Positions 42,482-60,096 of a DNA stretch of 64,000 bases are shown one piece after another; position 1 is the stretch's first letter, and the number at the start of each line of letters is the position of its first letter. The translations under genes and the position numbers were made by a program. This DNA comes from an uncultured Methanosarcinales archaeon (GTDB taxonomy: Archaea > Nanobdellota > Nanobdellia > Woesearchaeales > JAGVZT01): the NCBI GenBank assembly GCA_964419615.1, contig CAYQPU010000001.1:17266-81265 (forward strand). The letters are read 5' to 3'. The notes under the pieces are model-generated. The model was not told the origin of the DNA, ran no database searches, and saw only the letters and a program-made list of their open reading frames with translations.

Positions 42482-42577
42482 ATTTTTACCTCCGTTTGTT
42501 TAGATTTATTCATATTATGTTATTTGCCTGTTTAATTTTTCATATTGAAAACCTTGGCAAAATAAGACAATGAAGAG

Positions 42578-42631
42578 CTAACGCTGTTCTAATTTAAATT
42601 TTGATTTAGCCATAATCATATTATCTCTCAT
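42578..42631 (-). promoter_or_regulatory. Candidate leader peptide ORF of the lysine operon (MRDNMIMAKSKFKLEQR)
   Basis: In-frame ATGs at 42631, 42619, 42613; K-S-K-F-K; stop lies inside the motif shared with the thrS leader. Confidence 0.55.
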
Positions 42632-42751
42632 TGTACACACACAAAATATATTCTAATAGTTAGATTATTTAAGAATCATAAAAGGTTATATTAACTTAAT
42701 GTTATTATTTTAACAAAATTTATAAGTAATTGTTATTTCTTAATATTTAAA

Positions 42752-43408
42752 ATGGTAACCATTTCCCATATTGTTTCAGAAAAATTGTCCAAACGCCCAT
42801 TTTTGCAGGAAGCTCTTTCAAGAGGACTGATCAACTACGGTGCTTTAGCTGATGATTTAATTCCCATAGTTGAAACAACTCTTCACAAAAAAGTCAAACA
42901 TTCTGCAGTGATGATGGCGATTAGAAGATATACTGAAAATGTCCGGAAAAATGAGTTTAAGCAAATTGAATTTTTTAAAGGTACAGATTTGAGTGTCAGA
43001 TCTAATTTATGTGAGATTACTTTCCAGCGTTCAACCAAAACATTGGACAAAATAATGTTGATATATGATATTATTAATCCTAATCAAGGAGATATGCTTA
43101 ATATAATTCAAGGTAACTATGAAATAACAATTATTTCAAATCAATCTCTAAAAAAACAGATTATCAAGATAGTTGGCAAAAGTAATATGATTAAGTGCTT
43201 TGATAAGCTTTCTTCAGTTTCAATTCGTTATCGTGAGGAGATCATTCACACACCTGGTTTTATTTTGGCTTGTGTGAAAGCAATATCCTGGGAACAGATT
43301 AATATTGTTGAAATTGTATCAGCAATGACTGAATTAACTTTTATTCTGGCAGAAAAAGATGCAATTCCTGCCTTTGAGATTCTACAAAACTTAATTTCCA
43401 GCAATTAG
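42752..43408 (+). CDS. Putative amino-acid-binding regulator (N-terminal helical domain plus ACT-like domains)
   Basis: GLINYGALA...AVMMAIRRY N-terminus and aspartokinase-like ACT C-terminus (INIVEIVSAMTELTFIL); divergent from lysW. Confidence 0.7.
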   Translation: MVTISHIVSEKLSKRPFLQEALSRGLINYGALADDLIPIVETTLHKKVKHSAVMMAIRRYTENVRKNEFKQIEFFKGTDLSVRSNLCEITFQRSTKTLDKIMLIYDIINPNQGDMLNIIQGNYEITIISNQSLKKQIIKIVGKSNMIKCFDKLSSVSIRYREEIIHTPGFILACVKAISWEQINIVEIVSAMTELTFILAEKDAIPAFEILQNLISSN

Positions 43409-43580
43409 ATGGTCTTAAAACATAGTTTTTTAAATCAACCAATTTTTATCATAGCACTTTAAGGTAATCTATCGTTACATAACCGCTTCATTAAAAAGTG
43501 GTAGTAAATTTACTACATTTTAAAGTAACAAAAAATCAAAAAATTAATATAGGAGTTGATTATATTCAAGATCAAAGGGG

Positions 43581-44087
43581 ATGAATTTGAAAAAGTTAAT
43601 TTTAATTGGTTTGATATTGTTGATAACGTGCATGGTTCTTGCACAAGAGGAAGCAATTCCTGAGCTTATTAGTGTTGAAGATCCTCAGGATGTTCCCCCA
43701 GCAGAACCTGTTCAAGAGTTGGAAGTTGAGATTGTCGGAGAAGAAAAGGGGTCAGCTATGGAAAGTTTATCACAGCTAAAAACAAAGGTGATTGGCTGGT
43801 TCTCTTTTGTTGCTAGTAGAAATTATTTATCTGCTGCAAAAAATCTTGCAAGTAATGTTTTAGGATTGAAACTATGGATTAAGATTGCTATATCTGTTGC
43901 TATTGTAATAATTGCATTGATTGTTTGGGCATCTTTGTTCAAAGATTCAAAACGTAACAATATGCGAAGAGCAAGAAAACTGCATAAAAAAGCAAAAAAA
44001 GCTCATGACAAGGGTGATGAAGATAAAGCAACTGCTTTGTATCAAAGATCAGCTGAATACCGAGAAAAAGCCCAGGAGCAATGGTAA
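43581..44087 (+). CDS. Exported/membrane protein with basic C-terminal tail
   Basis: Signal peptide, acidic linker, TM helix, basic helical tail. Confidence 0.7.
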   Translation: MNLKKLILIGLILLITCMVLAQEEAIPELISVEDPQDVPPAEPVQELEVEIVGEEKGSAMESLSQLKTKVIGWFSFVASRNYLSAAKNLASNVLGLKLWIKIAISVAIVIIALIVWASLFKDSKRNNMRRARKLHKKAKKAHDKGDEDKATALYQRSAEYREKAQEQW

Positions 44088-44797
44088 AAATGGAATGGTT
44101 TGAAGAACTTGATTTTGATGAGAATCCTTTTGATACTAATCCAAAAAAGTATCCAGAAAAATTAGTTGGATTAACAGAGATATTTGAAGATCTTATTTAT
44201 AGAATAGAATCTGGGGCAATGGTCTTTTTGGAAGGTAAAGAAGGTTTTGGAAAGACTTCCTTGCTTTGGAATGCTATAAAGAAAAAAAGAGGAAAGGGAA
44301 AGATAATTTATGTTGATTGTGATATGCTTGATGAAGACTTGAATATTGAAAAGCTAATGATCAACAGGCATGGTCTTTCTGGGAAACTGTTTAAAACAAA
44401 ACCAAAAGGTATGATTCTGCTGCTTGACAATGTTACAGCACTCAGTAAACTTAATTCAGAAAGAGTTAAGTACTTTTTTGACCAGGGTTATCTTAGGTCA
44501 ATTGTTTTTACTGGAAAAAGTTTTGGGAAAGTTAATTTTTCAAAAAGCCTAAAGCAAAGAATTGGAAGTAGAGTATTGAATATTAAGTCTGTTGACAAGT
44601 ACCAAGCAATTGCTATTGTCAGAAACAGGATTCAAGATCTTAATATGATATCTGATGATCTTATTGAAGAGGTTTTCCAAAAATCAGGTGAGAATCCAAA
44701 AAGATTGTTAGAGAATTGTGAAAAGCTTTTTGGTCATGTGATTGAGAGTAATGAAGATAAAATAACTAAAAAGCACTTGAAAGTAATAGAGGGATAA
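44081..44797 (+). CDS. ExeA-like P-loop (AAA+) ATPase 1, degenerate Walker B
   Basis: W...LDFDENPF start, GKEGFGKT, ILLLDNV. Confidence 0.75.
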   Translation: MVKMEWFEELDFDENPFDTNPKKYPEKLVGLTEIFEDLIYRIESGAMVFLEGKEGFGKTSLLWNAIKKKRGKGKIIYVDCDMLDEDLNIEKLMINRHGLSGKLFKTKPKGMILLLDNVTALSKLNSERVKYFFDQGYLRSIVFTGKSFGKVNFSKSLKQRIGSRVLNIKSVDKYQAIAIVRNRIQDLNMISDDLIEEVFQKSGENPKRLLENCEKLFGHVIESNEDKITKKHLKVIEG

Positions 44798-44798
44798 A

Positions 44799-45719
44799 AT
44801 GTTATGGTATAAAGAATGGGGATTTCATGATAATCCTTTTAGTATAAAACCTGCTGCTTTTAACAGCATTGTAGTTGGATATGATCTATCTGAGATCTTT
44901 GAGAAAATTGATAATGGTGAAATATTGTTTCTCGAAGGAAAATTTGGTTATGGAAAAACAACTATACTAAAGCATATTATTAGCAGATACGGTGGTAGAA
45001 GAGAAGTTGCGTATTATAATTGCAACAGAAAAGAAGGTGACGTTGAAGTTGAGAGTGTCCTGAGAGGAAAGTATGGTTTGCTTGGCAAATTGTTTCTTGG
45101 AACTCCAAATAACATGATTCTTTTGCTTGATGAAGTAGGTAGTCTGTCTGAATCTGACCAGCAGGAATTATTAAGACTTCATTCAGAAGGCAATTTAAAA
45201 TCTGTTGTACTCTTCGGACCAAAATTTGAATTGGTTAATGTGATTGCAGACTTAAAGCAAAAATTGGTTGATAATGTAATTGAATTAACGAAGTTAAGTG
45301 ACGAAGAGGCAATTGAACTAGTGAGACAAAGGATTGGCAATGTTAAATTATTATCAGATGAGATTATTAAAAGAGTATATGAAAGTTCTGATAAAACTCC
45401 TAGAGTGTTGCTTGAAAATCTTGAAGACTTGTGCAAATATGCTGTTGAGAATAATGAAGAAGAAGTTACAGAGGATCATTTAAAGGATGTTCTTGACATC
45501 AAGAAAACAAAAAAGAAAAAACCTAAGGCAGTGGCAGTTGTAAAAAAGAAAAAACCTAAAAAGGAAGCAAAGAAAGAAGGCAAAAAAGAAAAGGTTGAAG
45601 AGAAAACAGAAACTAAAGAGAAAGAAAAACCTAAGGAAAAAGTAAAACAAGGACCAAAGGGACTTCAAACACCTCAGGAAATTGCTGAAGAAAAAGAAGC
45701 TGAATTTTTTTATTATTGA
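44799..45719 (+). CDS. ExeA-like P-loop (AAA+) ATPase 2 with Lys/Glu-rich tail
   Basis: WYKEWGFHDNPF, GKFGYGKT, ILLLDEV, low-complexity C-terminus. Confidence 0.78.
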   Translation: MLWYKEWGFHDNPFSIKPAAFNSIVVGYDLSEIFEKIDNGEILFLEGKFGYGKTTILKHIISRYGGRREVAYYNCNRKEGDVEVESVLRGKYGLLGKLFLGTPNNMILLLDEVGSLSESDQQELLRLHSEGNLKSVVLFGPKFELVNVIADLKQKLVDNVIELTKLSDEEAIELVRQRIGNVKLLSDEIIKRVYESSDKTPRVLLENLEDLCKYAVENNEEEVTEDHLKDVLDIKKTKKKKPKAVAVVKKKKPKKEAKKEGKKEKVEEKTETKEKEKPKEKVKQGPKGLQTPQEIAEEKEAEFFYY

Positions 45720-45740
45720 AATGTTTTGGTGAACTTTTCT

Positions 45741-46652
45741 TTAGTTATTTATTTTTTTAAGTGCATTATTTTTTTTTGAAGTTTTCATCAGTTGAATAAC
45801 AATACCTGCAACAATAAGCACTAATCCAATAATCGAAGCAAAGGGGATAGTTTCATTATTTAAAAAGTAGACAAATATTAGAGATAAAAAAGGATTCACA
45901 TAAACAATATTTGCCATTTTATGTGTGTGTCCGATTTTCAGTGCTTTGAACCAAAAAACAAATCCGATTGAATTTGCTAAACCACCCAAAAACAATAATG
46001 ATAATATTGTGGTAGGTGATGTTGGAATAGTAAATTTGGAAACCACTAGCATTGTTGGTGTAATCAATATAAAAGAGGAAGTATAATACACCAGCATACT
46101 TGTAAACTTTTCATGTTCATGCTTTTTTCCTAGTACTGAAAACAAACCATAACATATTGCTGCTCCTAAAGCAAGGAGATATCCACGAGCATATTCATTT
46201 TGAAAACTCGTGAAAGTACCTTTAGTAAAAACAATAAATGCTCCAATGAAACTAATTAGTATAGCAATAATGGTTTTTTGATTCCATTTTTCATGGAGTA
46301 AAAATATTGAAAAAATTACAATGAAAATTGGCCAGAGATAATTAATCATATTTGCCTGACCTGCAGGTGCTATATTAAAACTTCCATATAGTAAAATATA
46401 ATACATATACAAACCAAGAAATCCCATACCAAACATCTTTGCATAATCTGATTTCTTATATTCTTTAAACAGTTTATACTTATTTTGGAATTTAATAATT
46501 AATGAAAGAGTTATTATACCAACAATATTGTTGTAAAATAGAATTTGAAAGTTATTAAGTTCATTCAAAGCCAGTTTAGCAACAGCAGGTACAGCTGACC
46601 ACATTAAAATTGTAAGGATCAAGTAAGAATATGCTGACATCTCTTTTTTCAT
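45741..46652 (-). CDS. EamA/DMT family transporter
   Basis: About ten TM helices in two repeats; GFLGLYMYY, NYLWPIF. Confidence 0.9.
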   Translation of the reverse strand: MKKEMSAYSYLILTILMWSAVPAVAKLALNELNNFQILFYNNIVGIITLSLIIKFQNKYKLFKEYKKSDYAKMFGMGFLGLYMYYILLYGSFNIAPAGQANMINYLWPIFIVIFSIFLLHEKWNQKTIIAILISFIGAFIVFTKGTFTSFQNEYARGYLLALGAAICYGLFSVLGKKHEHEKFTSMLVYYTSSFILITPTMLVVSKFTIPTSPTTILSLLFLGGLANSIGFVFWFKALKIGHTHKMANIVYVNPFLSLIFVYFLNNETIPFASIIGLVLIVAGIVIQLMKTSKKNNALKKINN

Positions 46653-46790
46653 ATCTTAACAAAATTTGCTTTAATTAAAAAATGTTTCTAGAAACAGTTT
46701 CAGTTTTCAAACAAAATAATATACTAGTGCATATTCTTTGGTCCTCCATTAATAAAGTTTTTAAATAACACACTCATTCTAGCATGTACA

Positions 46791-49544
46791 ATGGAAGATA
46801 ATCAACTTTTAAGAGAGCGGAAAAGAAAATTAGCTGAGCTTAGAAAAAAAGGTATTGAGCCATATGCATATAATTTTGATAAACAGCATTTTGCTGATAA
46901 AATATTAAAAGAATATAATAAATATGAAGATAAGAAAGTAAGTGTTGCTGGAAGAGTTATGTCTATGAGGGATATGGGAAAGGTTAGATTTGCTCATATT
47001 AATGATTCTACTGCACAGATTCAATTGTATTTTAAAAAAGATATTATTGGCAGTGATAAGTATTCTGTGTTAAAGCTACTGGATATTGGAGATATTATTG
47101 GATGCCAAGGAAAGGTGTTTAAGACAAACAAAGGTGAAGTGAGCATTGAGGTAAAAAGCTTTAGTCTGTTGACAAAATCTCTAAAACCTCTTCCTGAGAA
47201 ATGGCATGGTATTAAGGATAAAGAACTTCAATATCGGCAAAGGTATGTTCATTTAATAATGAATCCTGATGAAAAACAAGTATTTGTGACCAGAGAAAAG
47301 ATTATTGGTGGGATTAGGCAATACCTGTTGGATAGAGACTATGTTGAGGTTCAAACCCCAATCTTGCAACCTATGTATGGAGGTGCTTCAGCAAGACCTT
47401 TTGAAGCAAATCTACATGCTTTGAATATGCCTGTTTATATGAGAATTTCTAATGAGATGTATCTGAAAAGGCTTATTGTGAGCGGCTTTGACAGAGTATT
47501 TGAGTTTTCAATTGATTTTAGAAATGAAGGAATTGATAAAAACCATAATCCTGAATTTTTATTGTTTGAAGCAATGACTGCATATACAGACTATTTTGAC
47601 GGTATGAAATTGATTGAGGATATTACTGAGCATGTTGTTAAGAAAGTTAAAGGTACAACAAAAGTTAATTATCAGGGAAAAGTTATTGATTTTAAGGTTC
47701 CCTGGACCCGAATTTCTGTTAGAGAGTCTATTTTAAAATATGCTAAAATTGATATTGAAAAAGTAGACGATAATGAGCTAAAAAAGATTTTGGATAAAAA
47801 CAAGATCCAACTAAAAGGGCAATACACTCGAGGAAATGCAATTTTGGCTTTGGTTGATGAATTTTGTGAACAGCATTTTGTACAGCCAACAATTCTTTAT
47901 GATTATCCAAGGGAAACTTCTCCACTATCAAAACCAAAAAGAGATGACCCAAAATATACCGAGAGATTTGAGCAGTTTGTAAACTGTTCTGAATTAGGAA
48001 ATAATTATACAGAGGTTACCAATCCTCAAATTCTCAGAGAGAATTGGGAAAATGAAGAGGATGCATTGAGTAAAGGAGATTATGAGGCAATGAGAATGGA
48101 CTATGATTACCTTAATGCTCTTGAAGTTGGAATGCCTCCAGTTTGTGGGATTGCAATTGGTATTGACAGATTGATAATGATTCTTACTGACAAAATATCT
48201 ATTAGAGATGTTATTTTGTTTCCATTTATGAAACCATTGGACATGCCAAAGCCGCAGCTTCAGACTGTCCAGCTTAAAGATATATCCGGGAGTAAAGTTA
48301 TTGTAACAAAGGGAGCTCAAGATCTGGGTTTAAAAACAGCTTATGCAATAATTGATGGAGTTAATGTTAAGTCCAAACATGAAGAGTTGGAAAAACAAAA
48401 AAAGAAAGCTGGTATTCTAAAGGCAGATACAGGGAAGTTAAATGGTATGCAAGAAGCTTATAGATCATTTGGTATTGATCCAACTAAGAGGATCCCTAGT
48501 GCAGAAGCTTTGATAAAAAGAGTTGAACAAGGAAAAGGGATATACAAAGTAAATACGTTAGTAGATGCTTATAATCTTTCTTCTATTAGAGAAAGTTTAC
48601 CAATGGCTGCTTATGATTTAGTCAAAGTTAACTGGCCAATCAAATTAAGAGAGGCTAAAGAAGGCGAAGAAATAACTATTATTGGTGGGGATAAAAAGAA
48701 AACAAAACAAGGAGAGATTATTTATGCTGATGAATCAAGAGTGTTATGTTTAGATTTTAATTATAGAGACTGTGATTTTACTAAGATCACAAATAAAACT
48801 AAGCAAGTTATTGTTTTTGTTGATGGATGCATTGGAGTTAGTGATGATGAATTATTGCAATCTCTTGATAACACGTGTGATTTAATTACTCAGTTTAATG
48901 GTGGGGAGGTTGTTGAGAAATGTATTGCAGGAAGAGAAGCTTTATCTGAAAAAACTTCCTTGTCAAAACCTCCACTTACAAGAGAGCAAGCATGGGCACT
49001 TATTAAAAAGTACAATAAGCATGAACCAGATACTTATCATTTTCTTGAAAGTGAAGCAATAATGAAGGCTTTGGCTGAAAAGCTAGGTGAAGATGTTGAT
49101 GCTTGGGGAATGCTTGGTTTATTACATGATGTTGATTGGGGTTTGACTAAAGATAATGTGAGTGAGCATACAGTTAAGTCTATTGAGATTCTAAAGGAAG
49201 CTGGATTTAAGGAAGATTTTATTGAAGCTGTTGCATCCCATAATTATGGCTGGCCAGGTGGACAGTGGGCAGATAAGAAGAGAACAAAAAAAGTTCATTT
49301 TGCCCTTGCTTGTGCAGAAACCCTAACTGGATTAATACATACTTATGCTTTGATGAGAAAGGATAAAATACAAGGCATGAAAGCAAAGGGTCTAAAAAAG
49401 AAGTTTAAGGACAAGAGCTTTGCAGCTAAGGTAAATAGAAATATCATCAGAGAATGTGAAAAGATTGGTCTGAGTATGGATGAATTTTTTAATCTAGCAA
49501 TTGATGCTGTACGCAAGATTGCAGACCAAGTAAAGCTTAAATAG
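46791..49544 (+). CDS. lysS: Class II lysyl-tRNA synthetase fused to B3/4 (PheT-like) and HD domains
   Basis: OB-fold (VSVAGRVM), YRQRY, FRNEGID..HNPEF, GIAIGIDRL, RDVILFP; then YRSFGIDPTK..PSAEAL..INTL-like VNTLVDAYN; then GLLHDVD. Confidence 0.93.
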   Translation: MEDNQLLRERKRKLAELRKKGIEPYAYNFDKQHFADKILKEYNKYEDKKVSVAGRVMSMRDMGKVRFAHINDSTAQIQLYFKKDIIGSDKYSVLKLLDIGDIIGCQGKVFKTNKGEVSIEVKSFSLLTKSLKPLPEKWHGIKDKELQYRQRYVHLIMNPDEKQVFVTREKIIGGIRQYLLDRDYVEVQTPILQPMYGGASARPFEANLHALNMPVYMRISNEMYLKRLIVSGFDRVFEFSIDFRNEGIDKNHNPEFLLFEAMTAYTDYFDGMKLIEDITEHVVKKVKGTTKVNYQGKVIDFKVPWTRISVRESILKYAKIDIEKVDDNELKKILDKNKIQLKGQYTRGNAILALVDEFCEQHFVQPTILYDYPRETSPLSKPKRDDPKYTERFEQFVNCSELGNNYTEVTNPQILRENWENEEDALSKGDYEAMRMDYDYLNALEVGMPPVCGIAIGIDRLIMILTDKISIRDVILFPFMKPLDMPKPQLQTVQLKDISGSKVIVTKGAQDLGLKTAYAIIDGVNVKSKHEELEKQKKKAGILKADTGKLNGMQEAYRSFGIDPTKRIPSAEALIKRVEQGKGIYKVNTLVDAYNLSSIRESLPMAAYDLVKVNWPIKLREAKEGEEITIIGGDKKKTKQGEIIYADESRVLCLDFNYRDCDFTKITNKTKQVIVFVDGCIGVSDDELLQSLDNTCDLITQFNGGEVVEKCIAGREALSEKTSLSKPPLTREQAWALIKKYNKHEPDTYHFLESEAIMKALAEKLGEDVDAWGMLGLLHDVDWGLTKDNVSEHTVKSIEILKEAGFKEDFIEAVASHNYGWPGGQWADKKRTKKVHFALACAETLTGLIHTYALMRKDKIQGMKAKGLKKKFKDKSFAAKVNRNIIRECEKIGLSMDEFFNLAIDAVRKIADQVKLK

Positions 49545-49549
49545 TTTTA

Positions 49550-52550: not shown

Positions 52551-52608
52551 AGAGCTTTTTATTTATTATTAATTATTAAATTTAACGCTATCATTTAACA
52601 GTGGGTAC

Positions 52609-53190
52609 TTACTTTTTTAGTTTTACATATATGAAATCAATCAAAAGATACAATACTACAACTAATACTGCTCCTGCTAAGAAATAGACAGCATAGTTTG
52701 GATTAGATACCTGGATTTCTGAAGCTAGGGGAGCTGCAGCAAGTTCTCTTGCACCTTCTAGCATTACATCTGCAGCCATAGCTTTTGGGGCTGCAAAAGT
52801 TTTATTCTGGTATGTTTGCAACATGGCTGCTGTCAAGGCTGTGAGTGTTATTGCTGGTAGAATAGATTTTAGTTTTTGCTTGATTCTTGGAACCTTACCA
52901 GGCGTTATTATTATGTATTTGTTAGCAATAGAATAATGGTTTACTTCTTTTCCTTTTTTACTATAGTGATATTCATCAGCTAAGACTAGTTTTGCTTTCA
53001 GCAGATGTTTTATGTTGTAGTGAACTGTTGAAAGAGGGATGTCTAGCTTTTTTGCAAGCTCTGTTTCTGTGGCTTTTTTCTTGCTTAAATAATCAAGAAT
53101 TTTCCTGGATGTTTCATTGCTAATAACTTGAGCCAGTTTTTTTGATTTGCTATCGCTTAAAGACATTAGCAAGAATGATTCTTCTGCCAT
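52609..53190 (-). CDS. ArsR-like HTH regulator with C-terminal TM helices
   Basis: SRKILDYL...TETELAKKLDIPLSTVHYNIKHL HTH; hydrophobic C-terminus. Confidence 0.82.
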   Translation of the reverse strand: MAEESFLLMSLSDSKSKKLAQVISNETSRKILDYLSKKKATETELAKKLDIPLSTVHYNIKHLLKAKLVLADEYHYSKKGKEVNHYSIANKYIIITPGKVPRIKQKLKSILPAITLTALTAAMLQTYQNKTFAAPKAMAADVMLEGARELAAAPLASEIQVSNPNYAVYFLAGAVLVVVLYLLIDFIYVKLKK

Positions 53191-53271
53191 AATATACTAG
53201 AACAAGGTTTAGTATTTAAATATTAAGTTAACTGCAATGCGGATTAAAGTGATCAACACAATGATCTTAAT

Positions 53272-56200
53272 CTACAAATACTTTACAAGATAGTAATCAA
53301 CGATATCTTCTGGCCAGCCTGCATCTAGTAAGGCCTTTTTAACAAATTCTCGACTAATCCCTCTTGATTTACAATTTTTAACAAAATTCTCAAGATCAGT
53401 ATGATGATGTTCTTTAGTAATACTTTTTGTTTTTTGTTTTTGGTGGGAGATGTATTTTTCTATGTTTTTCATAGAATTCATATGATCATATTTTTTGTAA
53501 CCTATGATTGCTCCAACAAATGCACTGATTACTACAAGGAAGATTATTATCACAAATATTTTGCTTATTTCTTTTTTGTGTGTTTGAGGTGCTTCCTGTT
53601 CGGGCTCTGCATTTGGCTCTTGCTCTACAGGTTCTTGGATAACCTCAATTTCTTCTTGTTCTGATTCCGCTTCTGTTTGCCGCACCTGAGGTGTGATTGA
53701 AACGATTGCAAATTTGCTAAATGAAACACTTGTTGCCTGGTACTGATAATAACCAGATCTTTGACCAATTAATTCAGTTGGAAGTTGGATCCATTTAGTT
53801 GTATATTTGTACAGTTTTATGTGTGATGCTGAACTTGAATTAGCTGTAATCCAAGATCTTGGTACTTTGAATTTGATAGATACTGATTCATAGTCTGTAT
53901 CTTCAATATCTTTCTCAGATATTTCAAGGATTTTGTATAGAGTGCTGTTTGAGACTATTGTTTCAGTATCTTTCAATGATTCAACAGTTAGTTCAACACT
54001 ACTTGTGTTTTTGTTTAATACAAATGTTAAGTTTGTGAATGCAATCTCATCATTATTAATACTCATGATGTTTTCTGTGCTAGATTTAACATCTATCCAT
54101 TTTTTGGATGCACTTGGATTTGGCACTGTTGTTATTGAACCGCCTCCACCTCCACCACCTTCTGAACTTCCAGCTGCATTTATTGTGAAATTGTGAGTAA
54201 ATTCTCCACTTATTCTATTGGATCTGTCAATACATTTTATGTAGTATGTTTGTGCTCCGTTTGATAGACCTCCAACATAGACTGTATGACTTAAACCAGG
54301 TTCATCAAATGTACCGTTCATGTCATAGTAATTTGTTCCATTTGTCATATAGTATCTACAAGCTGCCCATTCACTTGTGGTTAGTCTAAGACTTGTTGAT
54401 GTATCATATACTGTACCCTGTGGTTGCCATTCAGTGATATTTGGAGGAGAGATGTCTGATGATAGGTTTAGTGGAGTTTTGGTTAATAACTCCACACCAC
54501 CTATTGTTGTGTTGATAGATACATCAGGGAGAGATATGTTATACGACAGATTGTAGTTAGAGGTGTTGTACGTCAAATTCAGTATAGCATATCCACTTCC
54601 TGTTGAACCACTCCAAAGAGTGGTTTGATTGTCAATTATGGTTAAGTTTTTGCTTACTTCAGGGAGTCCAGAGTAATTGATTATGTAGATTGGGTAGAAT
54701 CTGGTTAGTTGTCCTGATAAGCTCAGATTAAGGAATTGTGCAATTCCATCAATAGTTGATGTTCCACTTGTGTTTAGCTGCCTTGTGATATTTGTGAATT
54801 CTGTGAAGTTGGCAGTTGTATTTGTTAAGGACAAATCAATTATTGTTGAGTTTATCAAAGTGAGGTTTGAATTAATGGAGGTAAACAAGCTGATGTTTGA
54901 GTTTTCCATTGTTATTGATGAGGTTGTTGTACCTATTTGCATTAATCCGATTGTTGTGTTGGTTAAAGTTAGTGTTGTGCCTGCAACTAGGCTAATGTTG
55001 TTAAGGCCAGTTGTTAATGTTGTAAAGTTAGTGTTTTGTGTTGCTATGTTTAACTGTACTATTGAAAGAGCTGAATTTGTTAATTGAATTGTTCCGTTGT
55101 TTAGGGTTATCATATCCGAGGTAAGAGTGGATATCTGGTTATTTGAACTACCTCTTATTGTTATATTCCGGAATACAGAATTGGAAATAATTGAATTTGT
55201 AGTTCCAGATAATTCAACATTGGTGTTGGTTGTGCTATCATTTATGTTTAGCATGAATTGATTTGAGAAGTTAAATGCTGTGCTTGAGTTAAATGTTGAT
55301 GAAAGGATAGATATGTTTTGATTATTGGTAAACATAGATTGATGATTTGTTAAAACAACATCTGATCTATCAAAATAGTAGTCATATCCCAAACTTTCAA
55401 TCACAGATGAATTTGTTAGTGTTAATGTGCTGACGTTTGTGGCTGTAATTCCAGTGCTGAAGTTTCTAAAAGCACAGTCAATGATGTTTAGACTGTTATA
55501 GTTTTGAGTAGAGAGTGCTGTTCCAATTATTGTTCCTCTAACTGGATAATTGCTGCAATTTAATGTTATTGAATTGTTCATTACTTCAAAACAAACTCCA
55601 CCACCAGAGTAGCTGATATTGCTTTGTATTGTGTATGAGTTGTAGAGTTTTCTACAGTTGTCAAATGTTGAGAAGTTGTATGGCCCTGATTCTGCGCAGT
55701 ACCCAGATGCATAGCAGCTCGTGACATTAAAGTAATATAATGAAGCTGATGCAAGATTTGAGATTGAAACTTGATGTCCACCTAGAGTTACAGATGTGTT
55801 TGTTGATAGATTTCCAAGGTTGATTGAGGTTCCATAGTCTATTGTTGAATTTCCTGACAACATTGTGTCCCAATTAATTATTGCTGTTTGGTTTGAAACT
55901 GATAATGTACTTACATTTTCAATGCTGCTTGTTGCATTAACAAAGACTGTTCTCATTTCCTCTGTGAAATTGTCACAACCAGAGGTTAGGTAAGTGTAAT
56001 TATGATAACCACTGCTTACAACAACAGGGTTTGTTGTATTTGTGCCGTCAAAGTATAATGTGTAATTACATCCAACATCACCTACATTTGTTTCAGATGC
56101 TGATATGTTAACTCCTTCAGATGTTACCTTGGTTTCGTATGTTCGAAAGCCAGTTAATACTCCGTCCTCTTCTCCTGCAATTATGTGCCAAATTCCTTGA

Positions 56201-57003
56201 TGATGAAATACTGTTGGTGCAGAGTAGGCTCCAATGTCAGAAAGTCCAGTTTCAATTGCATTGTAGTCTGACCAAGCATTTGTTTGCCATATTTTAGCAT
56301 GGAATCTACCAGTGGCATCTCCTGAGATTAAGTAAAACTCACCATCTTTTTGGAATGCAGAAGGTGTTGAACCCCAGTCTCCGATTGACAAGCTTGTATT
56401 TATTGTATTATTTTGATCCCAACCGCTTCCATTCCAGTTAAATCCATAAAACCCTCCAACTTCTTCTCCTGAAATTAAGTATACTGTATTGTTCATTTCA
56501 AATACTGTGAGTGTGGAATAGTCTCCTATATCTCCAAGACCTGCTGATACTGTGCTATTTGCAGTCCATGTTGAACCACTTCTATGGTAACCACTAAAGG
56601 TTCCATCTTGTTGTCCAATTAAAAGATACCAGTTTCCATTTATTTGGAATGCTTTTGGAGCCGCAAAGTTTTCTGTGGATAGACCAGATAATATTGATGA
56701 GTCTGTTTGCCACGCTGAACCAGACCAGTTGTACCCGTATAATAGACTTTGTTCTCCTCCAATCAAGTACAAGGTTGTGCCCATTTGGAATATTGTGACA
56801 TATGAATTTGTTCCTAAATCAGATAGTCCTGATGTTATTGCTGTATCTGATAGCCAGCCACCTTCAAGATTAGAGTATTCTGAGTTTATTGTTATGGTCA
56901 TGTTGCTTGTTGGTTTTTTTATGTTGAATGGCTTGTCAATTGCCGAAACTACAACAATTAATAGGAAAATTATAAGGCCCAGGAAGAGTTTATTTTTTCT
57001 CAT
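53272..57003 (-). CDS. Large surface glycoprotein: propeller-like repeats, Fn3-like, beta-helix-like, PGF-pre-PGF-like domain, TM anchor
   Basis: Signal peptide; five ~49-aa repeats (GL.D.G..S.P..F...G..YLI.G...G); many NxS/T sequons; FKVPRSWI...SFSKFAI; TM then LLDAGWP tail. Confidence 0.85.
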   Translation of the reverse strand: MRKNKLFLGLIIFLLIVVVSAIDKPFNIKKPTSNMTITINSEYSNLEGGWLSDTAITSGLSDLGTNSYVTIFQMGTTLYLIGGEQSLLYGYNWSGSAWQTDSSILSGLSTENFAAPKAFQINGNWYLLIGQQDGTFSGYHRSGSTWTANSTVSAGLGDIGDYSTLTVFEMNNTVYLISGEEVGGFYGFNWNGSGWDQNNTINTSLSIGDWGSTPSAFQKDGEFYLISGDATGRFHAKIWQTNAWSDYNAIETGLSDIGAYSAPTVFHHQGIWHIIAGEEDGVLTGFRTYETKVTSEGVNISASETNVGDVGCNYTLYFDGTNTTNPVVVSSGYHNYTYLTSGCDNFTEEMRTVFVNATSSIENVSTLSVSNQTAIINWDTMLSGNSTIDYGTSINLGNLSTNTSVTLGGHQVSISNLASASLYYFNVTSCYASGYCAESGPYNFSTFDNCRKLYNSYTIQSNISYSGGGVCFEVMNNSITLNCSNYPVRGTIIGTALSTQNYNSLNIIDCAFRNFSTGITATNVSTLTLTNSSVIESLGYDYYFDRSDVVLTNHQSMFTNNQNISILSSTFNSSTAFNFSNQFMLNINDSTTNTNVELSGTTNSIISNSVFRNITIRGSSNNQISTLTSDMITLNNGTIQLTNSALSIVQLNIATQNTNFTTLTTGLNNISLVAGTTLTLTNTTIGLMQIGTTTSSITMENSNISLFTSINSNLTLINSTIIDLSLTNTTANFTEFTNITRQLNTSGTSTIDGIAQFLNLSLSGQLTRFYPIYIINYSGLPEVSKNLTIIDNQTTLWSGSTGSGYAILNLTYNTSNYNLSYNISLPDVSINTTIGGVELLTKTPLNLSSDISPPNITEWQPQGTVYDTSTSLRLTTSEWAACRYYMTNGTNYYDMNGTFDEPGLSHTVYVGGLSNGAQTYYIKCIDRSNRISGEFTHNFTINAAGSSEGGGGGGGSITTVPNPSASKKWIDVKSSTENIMSINNDEIAFTNLTFVLNKNTSSVELTVESLKDTETIVSNSTLYKILEISEKDIEDTDYESVSIKFKVPRSWITANSSSASHIKLYKYTTKWIQLPTELIGQRSGYYQYQATSVSFSKFAIVSITPQVRQTEAESEQEEIEVIQEPVEQEPNAEPEQEAPQTHKKEISKIFVIIIFLVVISAFVGAIIGYKKYDHMNSMKNIEKYISHQKQKTKSITKEHHHTDLENFVKNCKSRGISREFVKKALLDAGWPEDIVDYYLVKYL

Positions 57004-57157
57004 TTTCTTCCTCCTTGATTTTTTCCATGACTAAGGCTTCAAATGCATGGCTTTCGCTTGCATATTTTTTATCTTTAATTTTCTTGTAAACCCATTTTAG
57101 AATATCTTCATCTACTCTTAACCATACTCGCTCCTTTTTAGGATTAGGTTTATTCAT
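56990..57157 (-). CDS. Ribbon-helix-helix (CopG/MetJ-like) small DNA-binding protein, 55 aa
   Basis: Not in track. MNKPNPKKERVWLRVDEDILKWVYKKIKDKKYASESHAFEALVMEKIKEEENEKK; overlaps the surface-protein start. Confidence 0.75.
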   Translation of the reverse strand: MNKPNPKKERVWLRVDEDILKWVYKKIKDKKYASESHAFEALVMEKIKEEENEKK

Positions 57158-57262
57158 GTGTCAGATGACACAAATTGTGCTAAATGACAATATAAATGTT
57201 TTGGTTTTTACTAGTAAAAAGCTTCCAAAAATTATATAAGCAATTAAGAAATTGAGAATCAC

Positions 57263-57919
57263 ATGCATTTTGTTATTGAGCTTTTAATGGTTTTAATCAT
57301 TGTTTTAATTACAACAGGGATCAGTATTTGGTTCCAAAGAAAAGGAATTGATTATCTAAACAAGTCTTGGGTTATTTGTTTAATTTTATGGCTAGGTTTC
57401 TTAACAATGCTTATTGTTATGAAGAAATATTTATTACTAGTTGTGAGCAAAGTCCAGGTTGACACTGTGCTGGTTTTTATGAGTATGTTCTTATTTTCTT
57501 TTTTTCTGATTTGGATCATTAAAAAGAAGTTTGTTGTTCCAAGAAAAGTTAAGAAAAGATTTTCGCATCTTTATTTGTTAGAATTTAATAATAGTTTTAT
57601 GATAACAAAAGTTTTTGACATCATTTTTCAACAGGTTTCAGTACTTGCTGCAATAAGGATCTTAGTTTCAAATGGTTTTAATAACATACAAATTATTGGA
57701 ATGTTTTCAATTGTTTTTTGTGTTTTTCATATTCCTCTGCTGCTACACGCTGGAAAAGCAGCTTTATTTCACATTTCAGTATCTTTACCAGGCGCTGCTA
57801 TTATGACAATACTAATTTTGAATGTTAGAGATGGTTTTGTTTATTCATTATTGCTTCACTGGTATGGTTATGTTTTTGCAAGATTGTTTTTTGGTTTAAT
57901 TTATAGAAAAAAACAATAA
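57263..57919 (+). CDS. Multi-pass membrane protein, possibly CPBP/Abi-like with degenerate first motif
   Basis: Several TM helices; F..FH and LLHW motifs; DIIFQQ where EExxxR is usual. Confidence 0.55.
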   Translation: MHFVIELLMVLIIVLITTGISIWFQRKGIDYLNKSWVICLILWLGFLTMLIVMKKYLLLVVSKVQVDTVLVFMSMFLFSFFLIWIIKKKFVVPRKVKKRFSHLYLLEFNNSFMITKVFDIIFQQVSVLAAIRILVSNGFNNIQIIGMFSIVFCVFHIPLLLHAGKAALFHISVSLPGAAIMTILILNVRDGFVYSLLLHWYGYVFARLFFGLIYRKKQ

Positions 57920-57954
57920 TAAGGGAAATTATTTTATAGATTACATAGTTTAGT

Positions 57955-58356
57955 TTGATTATGATGCAAGAATTCACTTTTCAAACCTCAAAAAAATATG
58001 AAATAGTTGATGTAACTTCAATAGTGCAGAATATTGTCAATGAGTCAGAAGTTAAAGAAGGTATTTGTGTCGTTTATGTACCGCATGCTACAGCAGCTGT
58101 GATTATTAATGAAAATTATGATCCTAATATTTGTGATGATTTGCTTGATTCTTTAAGGGATAATATTCCCGAGGGTAAATGGCGGCATGATAATATTGAT
58201 GGGAATGCTGCTGCTCATATTAAGGCAGCTATTGTTGGGCCAAGTGAGACTTTGATTATTAAAGATGGAAAATTGGTTTTAGGAACATGGCAGAGCTTGA
58301 TGGTTGCTGATTTTGATGGTCCTAAGCAGAGGAGAGTTGTTGTTAAGATTGTTTAA
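57955..58356 (+). CDS. yjbQ: UPF0047 / YjbQ family protein
   Basis: VPHATAAVIINEN, HDNIDGNAAAHIK, LGTWQ, FDGP motifs. Confidence 0.92.
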   Translation: MIMMQEFTFQTSKKYEIVDVTSIVQNIVNESEVKEGICVVYVPHATAAVIINENYDPNICDDLLDSLRDNIPEGKWRHDNIDGNAAAHIKAAIVGPSETLIIKDGKLVLGTWQSLMVADFDGPKQRRVVVKIV

Positions 58357-59830
58357 GGCTAAAAGTATCTAGTCCAAGGCCAGAGAGATTCTGTCCATTT
58401 TGTTGTTCTTGCTCCTTTTTAAGTTCCAGAGCCTTTACATAAGCTGGATCTCTGTTTAGAAAATGATATTCGTAATTTATTGGATCCTGCAAATAACATT
58501 CGTGGAGTTCTTTTAACCTAACCGCAATATCTTTACTTACAATAGTTTGAACAGAAGGATGGGCTACGAAGTCATCAACACTGTCAACACAATCAATAAG
58601 GTAAGTGAAAATAAGATCTCTAAATAATTTGTACTGCTCCAAAGGGAAGTTAAGATTACCCCTATTTTTTGAATAGATATTATCGTTCATTAAGGGAGAT
58701 TCTGCCAGAGTTAGATACAAAGGTACATAATCCGGATTTTGCTTTTTAACATCCATTCTTGCTTGATATACTAATTCGTCTGTCTGACTCTTTTCTAGAG
58801 TAAAAGTTGAAAGATTTACGTCCATAAAAAAACCACATAGAGTCCAAATAAAATCAAAAACATCTAATCTTGGATCTTGTTTGGTTCCATGTTTCTCAAC
58901 AAGCTTTGCTGCCCTTCTAACAAACTCCCATTCAACTACAACTGACGGATTTTTCAATCCAAGTTTTTTAACAAAGTCTGGGTCAAATTCATCTAGATTG
59001 TATTCAAATGTGTATTCAATAACAGATTTATGAGCATAGGCATGTGCAGGTGTTGTAGGGAATAACTCGGATATAACTAACTCTTTGCTTGTGGTTTTGT
59101 CTATTAGACCAGTACCTTCATTTATCATGAAAGATCTTCCGACATCACATGTTGCATATAGGACAAAATCAGCAAGTAGTTCAGGTGGTTTTTCTGATTC
59201 TTCATTGTCTGGACGTAATTCTGATAGTTCAAAAGAGAGGTCATAATCACAAATTTCAAATCTTCTTAAGATTGCTTCAAATTCCCGTACTCTCGATTGA
59301 AATACATTTAATACAAATTCAGTATGTAATTCATCATAGAATCTTACAAATTTCCCAATTGAATCTATCCTCCTTAATCCTGCTCTTGAGTATTCGTCAT
59401 GATTGGATTTTTTACTGTAATGCAATGTATCTTCATTAAATCTAAAAAACTGACCTTGATTTAATAACAGAGCTGAGAATATTTCTTTTTGTCGAGCATT
59501 CGCCAAGACAAGTTCTGCTCTTAAATCAAATTCAACAAAAGAATCATTTGCATCCAAGGGTCCATGGTATTCAAAATGATTAGGATCACCATATATCCCT
59601 TCAAACACTACTCTTACTTCTAGACCATCAAAAGTTTCAAAATGTCCTTTAACACTAAGAGTATCATCTTGTTCTTTTACACTTTCAATTAAAAAAGGCC
59701 TATAACCTTGTCTATTTACAAAGGCATTTATTCTTAGTGTGAGTTCATCATCATATGTAGGAAATGAAAAGGAAGTACCTAAATCAAAAAATTTGTCAAT
59801 GCCATTAAATAGATTAAATATCTCTTCCAT
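58343..59830 (-). CDS. Hypothetical protein
   Basis: 495-aa ORF, no recognised motif. Confidence 0.7.
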   Translation of the reverse strand: MEEIFNLFNGIDKFFDLGTSFSFPTYDDELTLRINAFVNRQGYRPFLIESVKEQDDTLSVKGHFETFDGLEVRVVFEGIYGDPNHFEYHGPLDANDSFVEFDLRAELVLANARQKEIFSALLLNQGQFFRFNEDTLHYSKKSNHDEYSRAGLRRIDSIGKFVRFYDELHTEFVLNVFQSRVREFEAILRRFEICDYDLSFELSELRPDNEESEKPPELLADFVLYATCDVGRSFMINEGTGLIDKTTSKELVISELFPTTPAHAYAHKSVIEYTFEYNLDEFDPDFVKKLGLKNPSVVVEWEFVRRAAKLVEKHGTKQDPRLDVFDFIWTLCGFFMDVNLSTFTLEKSQTDELVYQARMDVKKQNPDYVPLYLTLAESPLMNDNIYSKNRGNLNFPLEQYKLFRDLIFTYLIDCVDSVDDFVAHPSVQTIVSKDIAVRLKELHECYLQDPINYEYHFLNRDPAYVKALELKKEQEQQNGQNLSGLGLDTFSLKQS

Positions 59831-59952
59831 AGTATATCAAAAGGGAATATTTTACTAGATAAAAAGATTATTGAAATTTCAATCAAAAAGTGGTTGTCTG
59901 TTCATAATTTACCCAAAATATTTATATAATCCCTTTATTTTCTTGTTATAAA

Positions 59953-60012
59953 ATGGTTGCAAAGAATATACTTGGATTTGAAGTTTTAACTACTACAACC
60001 ACTACAGCGTAA
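59953..60012 (+). promoter_or_regulatory. Thr-rich leader peptide ORF of thrS (MVAKNILGFEVLTTTTTTA)
   Basis: ACT ACT ACA ACC ACT ACA; TTTATATA box at 59921-59928 implies a leaderless start; stop lies in the loop of ACAGC-GTAA-GCTGT followed by a T-rich tract. Confidence 0.8.
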
Positions 60013-60096
60013 GCTGTTCATTGTTTCTTTTAAATTTAGATGTTTTTAAAAAGATATAAATAAAAGATTTCAAACTAAGGAGGATAAGGAGCAAAA

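What the first reader, a model, noticed from the sequence alone, without database searches (positions are those of the whole stretch)
42567..60024. Same 21-nt motif ends two amino-acid-specific leader ORFs: candidate attenuation system in a DPANN archaeon
Seen in sequence: ACAGCGTAAGCTGTTCATTGT (+, 60004-60024, upstream of thrS) and ACAGCGTTAGCTCTTCATTGT (-, 42587-42567, upstream of lysW) are 19/21 identical, 17 kb apart, and each is followed by a T-rich run. In both, a short leader ORF enriched in the cognate amino acid (Thr x6; Lys x3) stops at the centre of the motif, though in different frames. They lie 73 and 86 nt before the regulated start codon. Established: bacterial leader-peptide attenuators (thrL, hisL) sense charged tRNA by ribosome stalling; archaea couple transcription and translation but, to my knowledge, such control is poorly documented there. 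Inference: a conserved RNA element (small hairpin plus U-tract, or a factor-binding site) whose exposure depends on whether the ribosome reaches the leader stop.
Basis: partly seen in the sequence, partly recalled or inferred. Interest (0 to 1): 0.92.

Follow-up and report, generated by a model that had tools for sequence, protein, structure and literature searches.

The report
Archaeal amino-acid-sensing leader mini-genes
The repeated 21-base motif is the common tail of at least ten tiny upstream genes in a Woesearchaeota archaeon, most ending in codons for the amino acid their downstream gene handles; this looks like a ribosome-based amino-acid gauge known from bacteria, for which I found no published report in archaea.

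Summary
The two 21-mers exist, are 19/21 identical, and are the only copies in the 1.48 Mb genome. They are not a two-copy oddity. Their core, TCATTGT, closes at least ten short ORFs that are probably leaderless.

Seven or eight of these ORFs end in a run of the cognate amino acid:
- Thr before thrS
- Ser before serS
- Met before metG
- Val before valS
- Cys before serK-cysKM-cysS
- Arg (twice) before an argG cluster
- Asn (variant motif) before asnA-asnS

The lysW and PEP-carboxylase copies have unclear specificity. The Lys enrichment claimed for lysW is weak.

Thr, Val, Met, Cys and Arg elements recur in related genomes of several families. In one relative the Thr leader precedes homoserine dehydrogenase. 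In three relatives the Cys leader precedes a tRNA-Cys gene.

The last cognate codon lies 9-12 nt before the motif in 22 of 26 elements, and it usually forms the 5' arm of a small hairpin with the stop codon in its loop.

Best reading: ribosome-sensed attenuation, most likely of transcription. The output step and the role of the invariant heptamer are unproven, and no RNA data exist. I found no paper on this in archaea. Earlier AI notes of this scan report similar leaders on other archaeal DNA.

The parts
59916..59929 (+). TATA-like box (aaaatatttatataa) about 24 nt before the thr leader ATG; presumed promoter P1 giving a leaderless leader mRNA
   Evidence: Sequence read. The same box sits at the same distance in thr_G020 and hom_G070, and a TATA-like box lies within 40 nt of every leader ATG. 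No SD precedes the leader ATG. Promoter use is inferred, not shown.
59953..60012 (+). Thr leader ORF MVAKNILGFEVLTTTTTTA* (six consecutive Thr codons using ACU, ACA and ACC)
   Evidence: P about 5e-7 for 6 Thr in the last 8 residues. Orthologous Thr-run leaders occur in seven other genomes or contigs.
60004..60017 (+). Hairpin ACAGC-GUAA-GCUGU. The 5' arm is the last Thr codon plus the Ala codon, and the stop codon UAA lies in the loop.
   Evidence: RNAfold -6.5 kcal/mol, z = -3.4. The loop varies (GUAA, AUAA, UUAG, UUAA) while the stem is kept. Three of five pairs change on both sides between Thr-type and Val-type elements. A generic scan flags it as terminator-like.
60018..60024 (+). Invariant core TCATTGT (UCAUUGU), shared by all elements
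   Evidence: Genome-wide the heptamer is not enriched (345 seen, about 338 expected), so it is specific to this context.
60025..60031 (+). U-rich tract TTCTTTT after the core; candidate pause/termination tract and possible anti-SD strand
   Evidence: T count in the 12 nt after the motif is 5.8 on average against a background of 3.9. In the MFE fold it pairs with AAGGAGCA of the thrS leader.
60050..60066 (+). Second TATA-like box (aaagatataaataaaag) between the motif and thrS; possibly an internal promoter or only an AU-rich loop
   Evidence: Conserved in thr_G020, thr_G148 and thr_L072. Its function was not resolved.
60077..60099 (+). Two SD-like boxes (AAGGAGG, AAGGAG) and the thrS start codon; predicted to pair with UUCAUUGUUUCUU
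   Evidence: Start codons of the regulated genes are predicted to be less accessible than those of control genes (0.30 vs 0.54, P = 0.0012).
60097..62001 (+). thrS, threonine-tRNA ligase (TGS, second additional domain, class II core, anticodon-binding domain)
   Evidence: Pfam. NCBIfam TIGR00418, 697.7 bits against a cut-off of 383.65.
42642..42653 (-). TATA-like box (agaatatatttt) before the lysW-operon leader
   Evidence: Sequence read. Inferred promoter.
42578..42631 (-). Leader ORF MRDNMIMAKSKFKLEQR* before the lysW operon; sensed amino acid unclear
   Evidence: Lys enrichment has P about 0.05. The codons at the usual sensing distance are CAG and CGU.
42567..42589 (-). Hairpin GAA.AGC-GUUA-GCU.UUC with the stop UAG at the loop, overlapping the core TCATTGT (42573-42567)
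   Evidence: RNAfold -3.8 kcal/mol, z = -1.4.
42559..42566 (-). Tract CTTATTTT after the core
42475..42513 (-). Second small ORF MNKSKQTEVKIW*, which overlaps the lysW start. Its AUGAA is the predicted pairing partner of the core in this copy.
   Evidence: Status unknown.
42320..42481 (-). lysW (amino-group carrier protein), first gene of the operon lysW, homocitrate synthase, LysX-type ligase x2, LysY (down to about 38496)
   Evidence: Pfam PF21344, PF00682, PF22626/PF08443 and PF01118; NCBIfam.

Best explanation
The 21-mer is the shared 3' module of a genome-wide set of ribosome-sensed leader elements. The module has three pieces: a small hairpin with the stop codon in its loop, the invariant UCAUUGU, and a U/pyrimidine-rich tract.

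Each element starts with a TATA-like box. About 20-27 nt later comes an ATG with no SD, so the mRNA is probably leaderless. The ORF has 9-32 codons, and in most elements its last codons encode the amino acid handled by the gene downstream.

Shown here:
- the cognate pairing between leader and gene;
- conservation of the elements in relatives;
- a fixed gap of 9-12 nt between the last cognate codon and UCAUUGU;
- a 3' hairpin arm that changes with the cognate codons.

Inferred:
1. When the charged cognate tRNA is scarce, the ribosome stalls on the last cognate codons. Its front edge then reaches just to UCAUUGU and holds the 5' arm of the hairpin.
2. The hairpin, UCAUUGU and the U-tract act as a pause/termination site for RNA polymerase.
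3. With ample tRNA the ribosome reaches the stop codon in the loop and is released. The hairpin then forms behind the paused polymerase and the transcript ends.
4. With a stalled ribosome the hairpin cannot form. The polymerase reads through into the synthetase, the biosynthetic operon or, in relatives, tRNA-Cys.

On this reading the invariant heptamer is read by a constant partner, most simply the polymerase itself. It may in addition help mask the start codon of the downstream gene.
For: 1. Ten elements in G000 carry TCATTG(T/A) after a short ORF: thr, ser, met, val, cys, argA, argB, asn (variant), lysW and ppc.
2. Downstream genes are confirmed as thrS, serS, metG, valS, SerK-like/cysKM/cysS, argG, asnA/asnS and PEP carboxylase.
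3. Cognate enrichment in the ORF tails has P from 1e-7 to 5e-4 for Thr, Ser, Met, Val, Cys and Arg.
4. Orthologous elements exist in relatives:
 - Thr-type in G020, G148, G039, L068 and L072, and before homoserine dehydrogenase in G070;
 - Val and Met in G020 and G148;
 - Arg in G020;
 - Cys in G020, G148, G039, G072, G237 and G103.
5. The gap from last cognate codon to motif is 9-12 nt in 22 of 26 elements. In G041 the only Thr codon of the thrS leader sits at that position.
6. The hairpin is significant in 15 of 26 elements (z < -1). Compensatory changes separate Thr-type from Val-type stems: 95% of cells are paired and 0 of 500 shuffles reach the covariation score.
7. The thr element scores as hairpin plus T-rich tail in a generic terminator scan (1 found, 0.0 expected). 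T is enriched after the motif.
8. tRNA-Cys(GCA) lies 20-45 nt after the Cys-leader motif in three genomes. At 20 nt there is no room for its own promoter, so the output must act on the transcript.
9. hom in G070 starts 33 nt after the motif, so it is co-transcribed with the leader.
Against: - No transcript data exist: start sites, 3' ends and read-through are all unobserved (one search listed no RNA run).
- From my own knowledge, archaeal intrinsic termination is thought to need only oligo-T, not a hairpin.
- The T-tract is weak or absent in hom_G070, thr_L068, met_G148 and asn.
- No mutually exclusive antiterminator structure was found, so the model needs a long polymerase pause, which is pure inference.
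- Several simple kinetic readings of the same anatomy give the opposite logic (stall leads to OFF).
- A conserved second TATA-like box lies between the motif and many of the genes, so part of the expression may bypass the leader.
- The hairpin is weak in Arg-type and some Cys-type elements.
- In met_G020 the ORF runs through the motif.
- Motif plus tract is complementary to the downstream SD and AUG, which fits a translational mechanism as well or better at those loci.
- The invariance of the G and the last U of the heptamer is unexplained.
Confidence: 0.5

Rival explanations
1. The sensor is the same, but the output is translational attenuation. UCAU(U) pairs with the (A)AUGA/G start codon, and the following pyrimidine tract pairs with the SD of the downstream gene, so the motif region masks the translation start. 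A ribosome parked at the end of the leader, or passing over it, opens this structure. This resembles ermC/cat and the mycobacterial leaderless poly-Cys short ORFs.
For: - Motif plus tract pairs with the cognate start region better than random upstream 24-mers do: hom_G070 P = 0.002, val_G148 P < 0.002, val_G020 P = 0.008, argB P = 0.035.
- In about 11 of 16 MFE folds UUCAU(U) pairs with the gene's start codon, and in many of them the tract also pairs with the SD.
- The anti-SD:SD helix co-varies among the three valS leaders.
- Start codons of the regulated genes are predicted to be less accessible than those of 250 control genes (0.30 vs 0.54, P = 0.0012).
- Anti-SD-like YCUYY occurs after the motif in 9 of 26 elements against a 9% background.
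- A bacterial precedent exists (bioRxiv 10.1101/834739).
Against: - It cannot regulate the tRNA-Cys that follows the Cys leader in G072, G237 and G103.
- A ribosome stalled on the last cognate codon ends just before the motif and does not cover it. Simulated occupancy there does not open the start region.
- The cognate start region is not preferred over the start regions of other genes.
- The identical Thr-type module faces different start regions with no covariation.
- Much of the signal comes from U-richness plus the trivial CAU/AUG complementarity.
- Accessibility for the ten own-genome elements alone is not significant (P = 0.07-0.2).
Confidence: 0.22
2. The sensor is the same, but UCAUUGU next to the hairpin is the binding or cleavage site of a trans-acting protein or RNA. 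Candidates are an aCPSF1/FttA-type termination factor, an endonuclease or a small RNA. A ribosome stalled with its edge at the motif sterically excludes that factor, so the transcript is spared.
For: - The heptamer is invariant across amino-acid classes and families while all its flanks vary. This is what a fixed trans partner predicts, and it is not expected for a cis pairing partner.
- The constant 9-12 nt gap puts the edge of a stalled ribosome exactly at the motif.
- The model works for a tRNA downstream.
Against: - No candidate factor was identified.
- The only rRNA complement found (16S ACAAUGG) is universal, and it does not co-vary with the motif variants UCAGUGG, UCAUUGG and UCAUUUU.
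- No known RNA family matches.
Confidence: 0.15
3. The short ORFs are not sensors. On this reading TCATTGT is a DNA site for a transcription factor that controls a downstream promoter, or the ORFs encode functional micro-peptides, or the resemblance is chance.
For: A second TATA-like box follows the motif at many loci, so a DNA-level role upstream of a promoter can be imagined.
Against: - The distance from motif to that box varies from 9 to about 30 nt and beyond.
- hom_G070 and tRNA-Cys in G103 have no room for a second promoter.
- The match between leader and downstream gene, using mixed synonymous codons, cannot be chance.
- Peptide sequences outside the run are not conserved.
- The fixed codon-to-motif spacing and the hairpin covariation are RNA/ribosome features.
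Confidence: 0.05

Closest known systems
Classical bacterial leader-peptide transcription attenuators (E. coli thrL-thrABC, hisL, trpL, pheM-pheST); from my own knowledge and as summarised in PMC2965389 and PMC1262725
   Same: A short upstream ORF carries a run of the cognate amino acid. It sits before biosynthetic operons and an aminoacyl-tRNA synthetase gene. A hairpin followed by a U-rich stretch lies next to the leader stop. The ribosome acts as sensor of charged tRNA.
   Different: - The organism is an archaeon (SSU rRNA).
- The leader is probably leaderless and preceded by a TATA box.
- There is only one small hairpin, with the stop codon in its loop, and no detectable antiterminator alternative.
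- One invariant heptamer is shared by all amino-acid classes.
- Synthetase genes are the main targets.
- No Rfam leader family matches.
Mycobacterial leaderless polycysteine short ORFs, the 'Cys ribulon' (bioRxiv 10.1101/834739)
   Same: Leaderless short ORFs end in cognate codons. Several independent loci are coordinated through ribosome pausing. A Cys leader precedes cysteine-synthesis genes. The downstream SD may be masked.
   Different: - In mycobacteria the Cys codons themselves pair with the SD region. Here they pair with an adjacent 3' arm, and a separate invariant motif follows.
- At least seven amino acids are covered, not one.
- The targets include synthetases and a tRNA gene, which argues for transcript-level output.
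T-box riboswitches before bacterial aminoacyl-tRNA synthetase genes
   Same: The regulatory task is the same: to adjust synthetase and biosynthesis genes to tRNA charging, one amino acid per element, with a shared expression platform.
   Different: T-box elements bind tRNA directly and have no ORF. No T-box or any other Rfam family was found here. In the metagenome scan several distant thrS homologues carried T-box-like leaders instead.
ermC / cat translational attenuation
   Same: In both, a ribosome arrested in a short leader remodels a downstream hairpin. The start region may be masked by a strand placed just after the leader.
   Different: In ermC/cat the arrest is caused by a drug and the nascent peptide, not by hungry codons, and the design has four segments. 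No equivalent second and third segment could be defined here.

Membership tests
Leader-peptide (ribosome-mediated) transcription attenuator | Short upstream ORF enriched in codons of the amino acid linked to the regulated gene | tested here: met
   Met for Thr, Ser, Met, Val, Cys and Arg (x2), and weakly for Asn. Not met for lysW (P about 0.05). Unclear for ppc.
Leader-peptide (ribosome-mediated) transcription attenuator | Leader and regulated gene lie on one transcript | tested here: inconclusive
   Supported by the 33-nt gap to hom in G070 and the 20-nt gap to tRNA-Cys in G103. A second TATA-like box lies between motif and gene at thr, ser, met and val loci. No RNA data exist.
Leader-peptide (ribosome-mediated) transcription attenuator | Intrinsic terminator (hairpin plus U-tract) between leader and gene | tested here: inconclusive
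   The thr element scores as terminator-like. The hairpin has z < -1 in 15 of 26 elements. T is enriched after the motif but not in every element. The lysW copy does not pass the generic scan.
Leader-peptide (ribosome-mediated) transcription attenuator | Mutually exclusive antiterminator structure whose formation depends on ribosome position | tested here: not met
   No conserved alternative pairing was found. The predicted partners of the motif differ from element to element.
Leader-peptide (ribosome-mediated) transcription attenuator | Read-through rises when the cognate amino acid or charged tRNA is limiting | not testable with these tools
   The organism is uncultured and no RNA run was listed.
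Leaderless short-ORF translational attenuator (mycobacterial Cys type) | The short ORF starts at the 5' end of the transcript | tested here: inconclusive
   A TATA-like box lies within 40 nt upstream of all 26 leader ATGs (about 20-27 nt where I read it), and none of the 26 has an SD. No start-site data exist.
Leaderless short-ORF translational attenuator (mycobacterial Cys type) | Cognate codons base-pair with the SD region of the downstream gene | tested here: not met
   The cognate codons pair with the adjacent 3' arm. Masking of the SD and AUG, where predicted, comes from the motif and tract downstream of the stop.
T-box riboswitch / known Rfam cis-regulatory leaders (including Thr leader RF00506) | Match to the family covariance model | tested here: not met
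   No match at the gathering threshold anywhere in the window. Only chance-level hits (E > 1) occur around the two sites.

The most novel reading that the evidence does not exclude
Part of the Woesearchaeota uses a modular, ribosome-read regulon. One invariant expression module (stop-loop hairpin, UCAUUGU, U-tract) is combined with interchangeable codon sensors. It controls aminoacyl-tRNA synthetases, amino-acid biosynthesis operons and even a tRNA gene. This would be a leader-peptide attenuation system in Archaea, working with an archaeal polymerase and leaderless mRNAs by a single-hairpin mechanism unlike the bacterial four-segment design. I found no published case in archaea.
Probability: 0.6. 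Interest if true: 0.9.

Novelty: new variant of a known kind. Interest (0 to 1): 0.82.

Why it matters
Leader-peptide attenuation is a textbook bacterial mechanism that depends on coupled transcription and translation. In five full-text searches I found no report of it in archaea.

This is a whole set of such elements in one small DPANN genome, with one shared module. It offers three things:
- evidence that ribosome-polymerase coupling is used for gene control in archaea;
- a compact, portable sensor design (9-32 codons plus about 30 nt) whose amino-acid specificity can apparently be changed by swapping codons;
- a short conserved sequence that may be a natural pause or termination signal, or a factor site, for an archaeal RNA polymerase.

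It also shows which amino acids a reduced, probably host-dependent archaeon monitors. The elements can serve as functional labels for unannotated neighbours, for example the two unknown small proteins behind the Arg leaders.

Tried and rejected
- **Rfam.** Searches of both sites and the whole window found no family.
- **Sequencing runs.** No RNA holder is listed; only marine and seawater DNA runs hold the stretch.
- **Specific pairing with the cognate start region.** Hairpin plus motif pairs no better with the cognate start region than with those of 358 other genes.
- **Ribosome occupancy simulation.** Blocking the footprint of a ribosome at the sensing codon gave no consistent change in start-region accessibility.
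- **5' panhandle.** Pairing of the leader's own 5' AUGA with UCAU reaches 6-8 bp in about a third of elements and only 4-5 bp in the rest, which is near chance.
- **Pairing with rRNA.** 16S has ACAAUGG, but that segment is universal, and the motif variants in other genomes do not co-vary with it.
- **Frameshift sensor.** The +1 and -1 frames are often open through the motif, but in three different registers and with variable ends, so there is no consistent second frame.
- **Second ORF from the UUG inside the motif, antisense ORF or antisense promoter at ACAATGA.** Lengths, spacing and peptides are inconsistent (read).
- **DNA-level site at a fixed distance from the second TATA-like box.** The distance varies from 9 to more than 30 nt.
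- **Metagenome scan with ThrRS.** Hits were mostly distant or bacterial homologues. It added only a copy of the G022-type variant.
- **Val-run-plus-motif pattern over 400 genomes.** The pattern sat at chance level against its own control, but it surfaced the Cys-type elements.

Full report
**Observation.** They differ at two positions. No match occurred in 100 shuffles of the window. With up to three mismatches they are the only copies in the 1.48 Mb, 99%-complete genome. The genes behind them are thrS and the lysW operon (lysW, homocitrate synthase, two LysX-type ligases, LysY). The organism is an archaeon, since its SSU rRNA scores 1409.6 bits on the archaeal Rfam model. Contigs carrying the same element are titled Candidatus Woesearchaeota archaeon.

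**What the motif belongs to.** A scan of the whole genome for short intergenic ORFs with amino-acid runs returned the thr leader and two more:
- MNIYMNQSSSSSQSS* before serS;
- an ORF ending HVVVVVA* before valS.

Both are followed within a few bases by TCATTGT and a T-rich stretch. Listing every intergenic TCATTGT added further cases:
- MKSNHSLKMMTSMLAMRMR* before metG;
- two leaders ending LVRRR* before paralogous unknown small proteins, one of them followed by argG;
- MSLTININNTDCDSQ* before an archaeal-type PEP carboxylase.

Allowing one mismatch gave MKHTINFRCCC* before an operon of a SerK-like protein, cysteine synthase and cysS. An earlier AI note on this genome pointed to an Asn-ending leader before asnA-asnS. 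I confirmed those genes and found that the leader carries a variant core (CATTGA) after a hairpin.

The heptamer is not enriched genome-wide (345 seen, about 338 expected), so it is specific to this context. Tail enrichment for the cognate residue has P between 1e-7 and 5e-4 for Thr, Ser, Met, Val, Cys and Arg. It is only about 0.05 for Lys in the lysW leader.

**Conservation.** A pattern search in 200 genomes of the same order gave true Thr-type elements in G020 (same genus), G148 (same family) and G039 and G070 (other families). The remaining three-mismatch hits lie inside coding sequence, at the rate of the reversed-pattern control.

In G070 the identical 21-mer follows SSTTTTTMTTA* and precedes homoserine dehydrogenase, a threonine-pathway gene, only 33 nt downstream. 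An exact-pattern scan of one genome per prokaryotic species found the Thr-type only on five archaeal MAG contigs. All bacterial hits were chance matches without a leader.

Other classes also recur:
- Val and Met elements with TCATTGT in G020 and G148;
- the Arg element in G020;
- Cys elements in G020, G148, G039, G072, G237 and G103.

Most other families of this very diverse order have no leader before thrS. G022 has a variant (TTTTTC*, a GGCC hairpin, TCATTTT), and G007 has a Thr-run leader without the motif. The lysW leader of the same-genus genome G020 is peptide-similar but lacks the motif and has a different long hairpin. The second site of the finding is therefore the weakest member of the set.

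**Anatomy.** I read five regularities from 26 elements.
1. Every leader ATG has a TATA-like box within 40 nt upstream (about 20-27 nt where I read it) and no SD, so the leader mRNA is probably leaderless. This is an inference.
2. The last cognate codon ends 9-12 nt before TCATTGT in 22 of 26 elements, while the distance from stop to motif varies from 4 to 9 nt. In G041 the thrS leader has a single Thr codon, and it sits exactly at that distance.
3. The last cognate codons usually form the 5' arm of a 4-6 bp hairpin with the stop codon in the loop. The 3' arm changes with the amino acid: ACAGC/GCUGU, GUGGC/GCCAC, UGUUGU/ACAACA, UCUAG/CUAGA, AUGAUGGC/GCUAUCAU. Fifteen of 26 hairpins have z below -1. 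On nine elements of identical geometry, 95% of cells are paired and three of five pairs change on both sides. This is effectively one Thr-to-Val switch, so it is modest evidence.
4. The 12 nt after the core are T-rich (5.8 against 3.9 T), but not always.
5. A generic scan scores the thr hairpin plus TCATTGTTTC as terminator-like.

From established ribosome geometry (my own knowledge), about 9-10 nt are covered beyond the A-site codon. A ribosome waiting for the last cognate codon would therefore hold the hairpin's 5' arm and end right at the core. A ribosome on the stop codon would cover the core.

**Output step.** Two lines of evidence pull in different directions.

*For a translational output.* The core and the following pyrimidine tract are complementary to the downstream start codon and SD:
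- they pair better than random upstream windows do;
- the two-helix arrangement appears in about 11 of 16 MFE folds;
- the anti-SD:SD helix co-varies among the three valS leaders;
- start codons of the regulated genes are predicted to be less open than those of controls.

Against this, the cognate start region is not preferred over others. A simulated stalled ribosome does not open it. The identical Thr module faces different start regions.

*For a transcript-level output.* In G072, G237 and G103 the Cys leader and core are followed after 45, 45 and 20 nt by a tRNA-Cys(GCA) gene, and only then by cysteine synthase. G039 has what looks like an intron-containing tRNA-Cys 16 nt after the motif, although ARAGORN did not call it. 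A tRNA cannot be controlled by masking a start codon, and 20 nt leaves no room for a separate promoter. At least there the module must act on the transcript.

I therefore rank transcription attenuation first. With ample charged tRNA the ribosome reaches the stop in the hairpin loop and leaves, the hairpin forms behind a polymerase paused on the U-rich tract, and the transcript ends. A ribosome stalled on the cognate codons keeps the hairpin open until the polymerase moves on.

The pause, the termination and the direction of control are all inferred. Several simple kinetic readings of the same anatomy would give the opposite sign, which I could not exclude by computation. The strict invariance of UCAUUGU while all flanks vary argues for a constant reader (the polymerase or a factor) rather than a cis pairing partner.

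**Comparison with known systems.** The elements work like bacterial leader-peptide attenuators (thrL, hisL, pheM), but they fail one defining feature, since no alternative antiterminator fold could be found. They match no Rfam family.

The nearest described relative in design is the mycobacterial set of leaderless poly-Cys short ORFs. There the Cys codons themselves pair with the SD region, and the output is translational. Here the codons pair with a local arm and a separate invariant module follows.

Five full-text searches found no paper describing leader-peptide attenuation in archaea. That is absence in the searchable library, not proof. Earlier AI notes of this scan report comparable unverified leaders before leuS in Asgard archaea, ileS in Thermoplasmata and valS in other DPANN genomes. 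They also noted the ser, met, val and asn leaders of this same genome. The phenomenon has therefore been seen before in this scan on other DNA. What is added here:
- the shared TCATTGT module that ties the elements into one system;
- the fixed spacing between the last cognate codon and the module;
- the hom, arg and cys members;
- the tRNA-Cys link.

**Verdict.** The mechanism is open between transcriptional, translational and factor-mediated outputs. This is a new variant of a known kind of control, of high interest, and it needs transcript-end mapping and reporter tests.

Noticed in passing
L188:1574-1645, L189:1574-1645, L199:1549-1621 (relatives G072, G237, G103): A tRNA-Cys(GCA) gene sits between the Cys-run leader/TCATTGT module and the cysteine synthase gene. 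The gap is 20 nt in G103, which is too short for its own promoter. A tRNA gene behind a leader ORF rich in its own codons is unusual.
   Followed up: partly
L180, about 16-180 nt after the TCATTGT of the Cys leader (relative G039): The sequence starts and ends like the tRNA-Cys of G072 but is interrupted by two inserts, and ARAGORN does not call it. It may be an intron-containing or split tRNA-Cys.
   Followed up: no
G000 contig C12 9622-9933 (L019:323-634) and C44 4189-4521 (L020:290-622): Two paralogous small proteins of 103 and 110 aa, both starting MKFIKI, have no Pfam or NCBIfam match. Each is the first gene behind an Arg-run leader, and one is followed by argG. A homologue holds the same place in G020. 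This is a candidate unknown arginine-related protein.
   Followed up: partly
G000 contig C2 45331-47500 (L022:332-2501): The operon behind the Cys leader holds a 135-aa protein resembling only the N-terminal part of archaeal ADP-dependent serine kinase SerK (ParB_N fold), then a cysK/cysM-type synthase and cysS. This suggests an O-phosphoserine route to cysteine that is co-regulated with CysRS.
   Followed up: partly
L083:1293-1400 (metG leader of G148): A branched structure of about 100 nt with strong predicted pairing (outer stem TCAAGAACCAC/GTGGTTCTTGA) is inserted between TCATTGT and a second TCATGCT plus T-tract. It matches no Rfam family. It may be an inserted element or an added regulatory domain.
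   Followed up: partly
window 42475-42513 (-): A second small ORF, MNKSKQTEVKIW*, lies between the lysW leader and lysW and overlaps the lysW start codon. Its AUGAA is the predicted pairing partner of the motif in this copy.
   Followed up: no
window 60050-60066 (+); also after the ser, met and val modules (G000 C5 about 20520, C5 about 26890, C10 about 39180): A strong TATA-like box (for example aaaatttatata) lies between the module and the regulated gene, about 24 nt before the ATG in ser, met and val, although these genes also have GGAGG SD boxes. It may be a second promoter giving a leaderless mRNA, or only the loop of an SD-masking hairpin.
   Followed up: partly
L175 (G020), about 150-250 nt upstream of lysW: The same-genus lysW leader MRILKNLTKFSERTLKS* lacks TCATTGT. 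Its last codons form one arm of a perfect 15-bp hairpin (AGAGAACTTTGAAAT/ATTTCAAAGTTCTCT). The orthologous operon therefore has a different expression platform.
   Followed up: no
window 60097-62001 (+): The ThrRS is of the bacterial type, with an N-terminal TGS domain and the second additional (editing-associated) domain, in an archaeal genome. Earlier notes of the scan made the same remark for related genomes.
   Followed up: no
L050 (relative G007), about 70 nt upstream of thrS: The leader MASKKTTTTN* precedes thrS without the TCATTGT module. Cognate-run leaders therefore seem more widespread in the order than this particular module.
   Followed up: no
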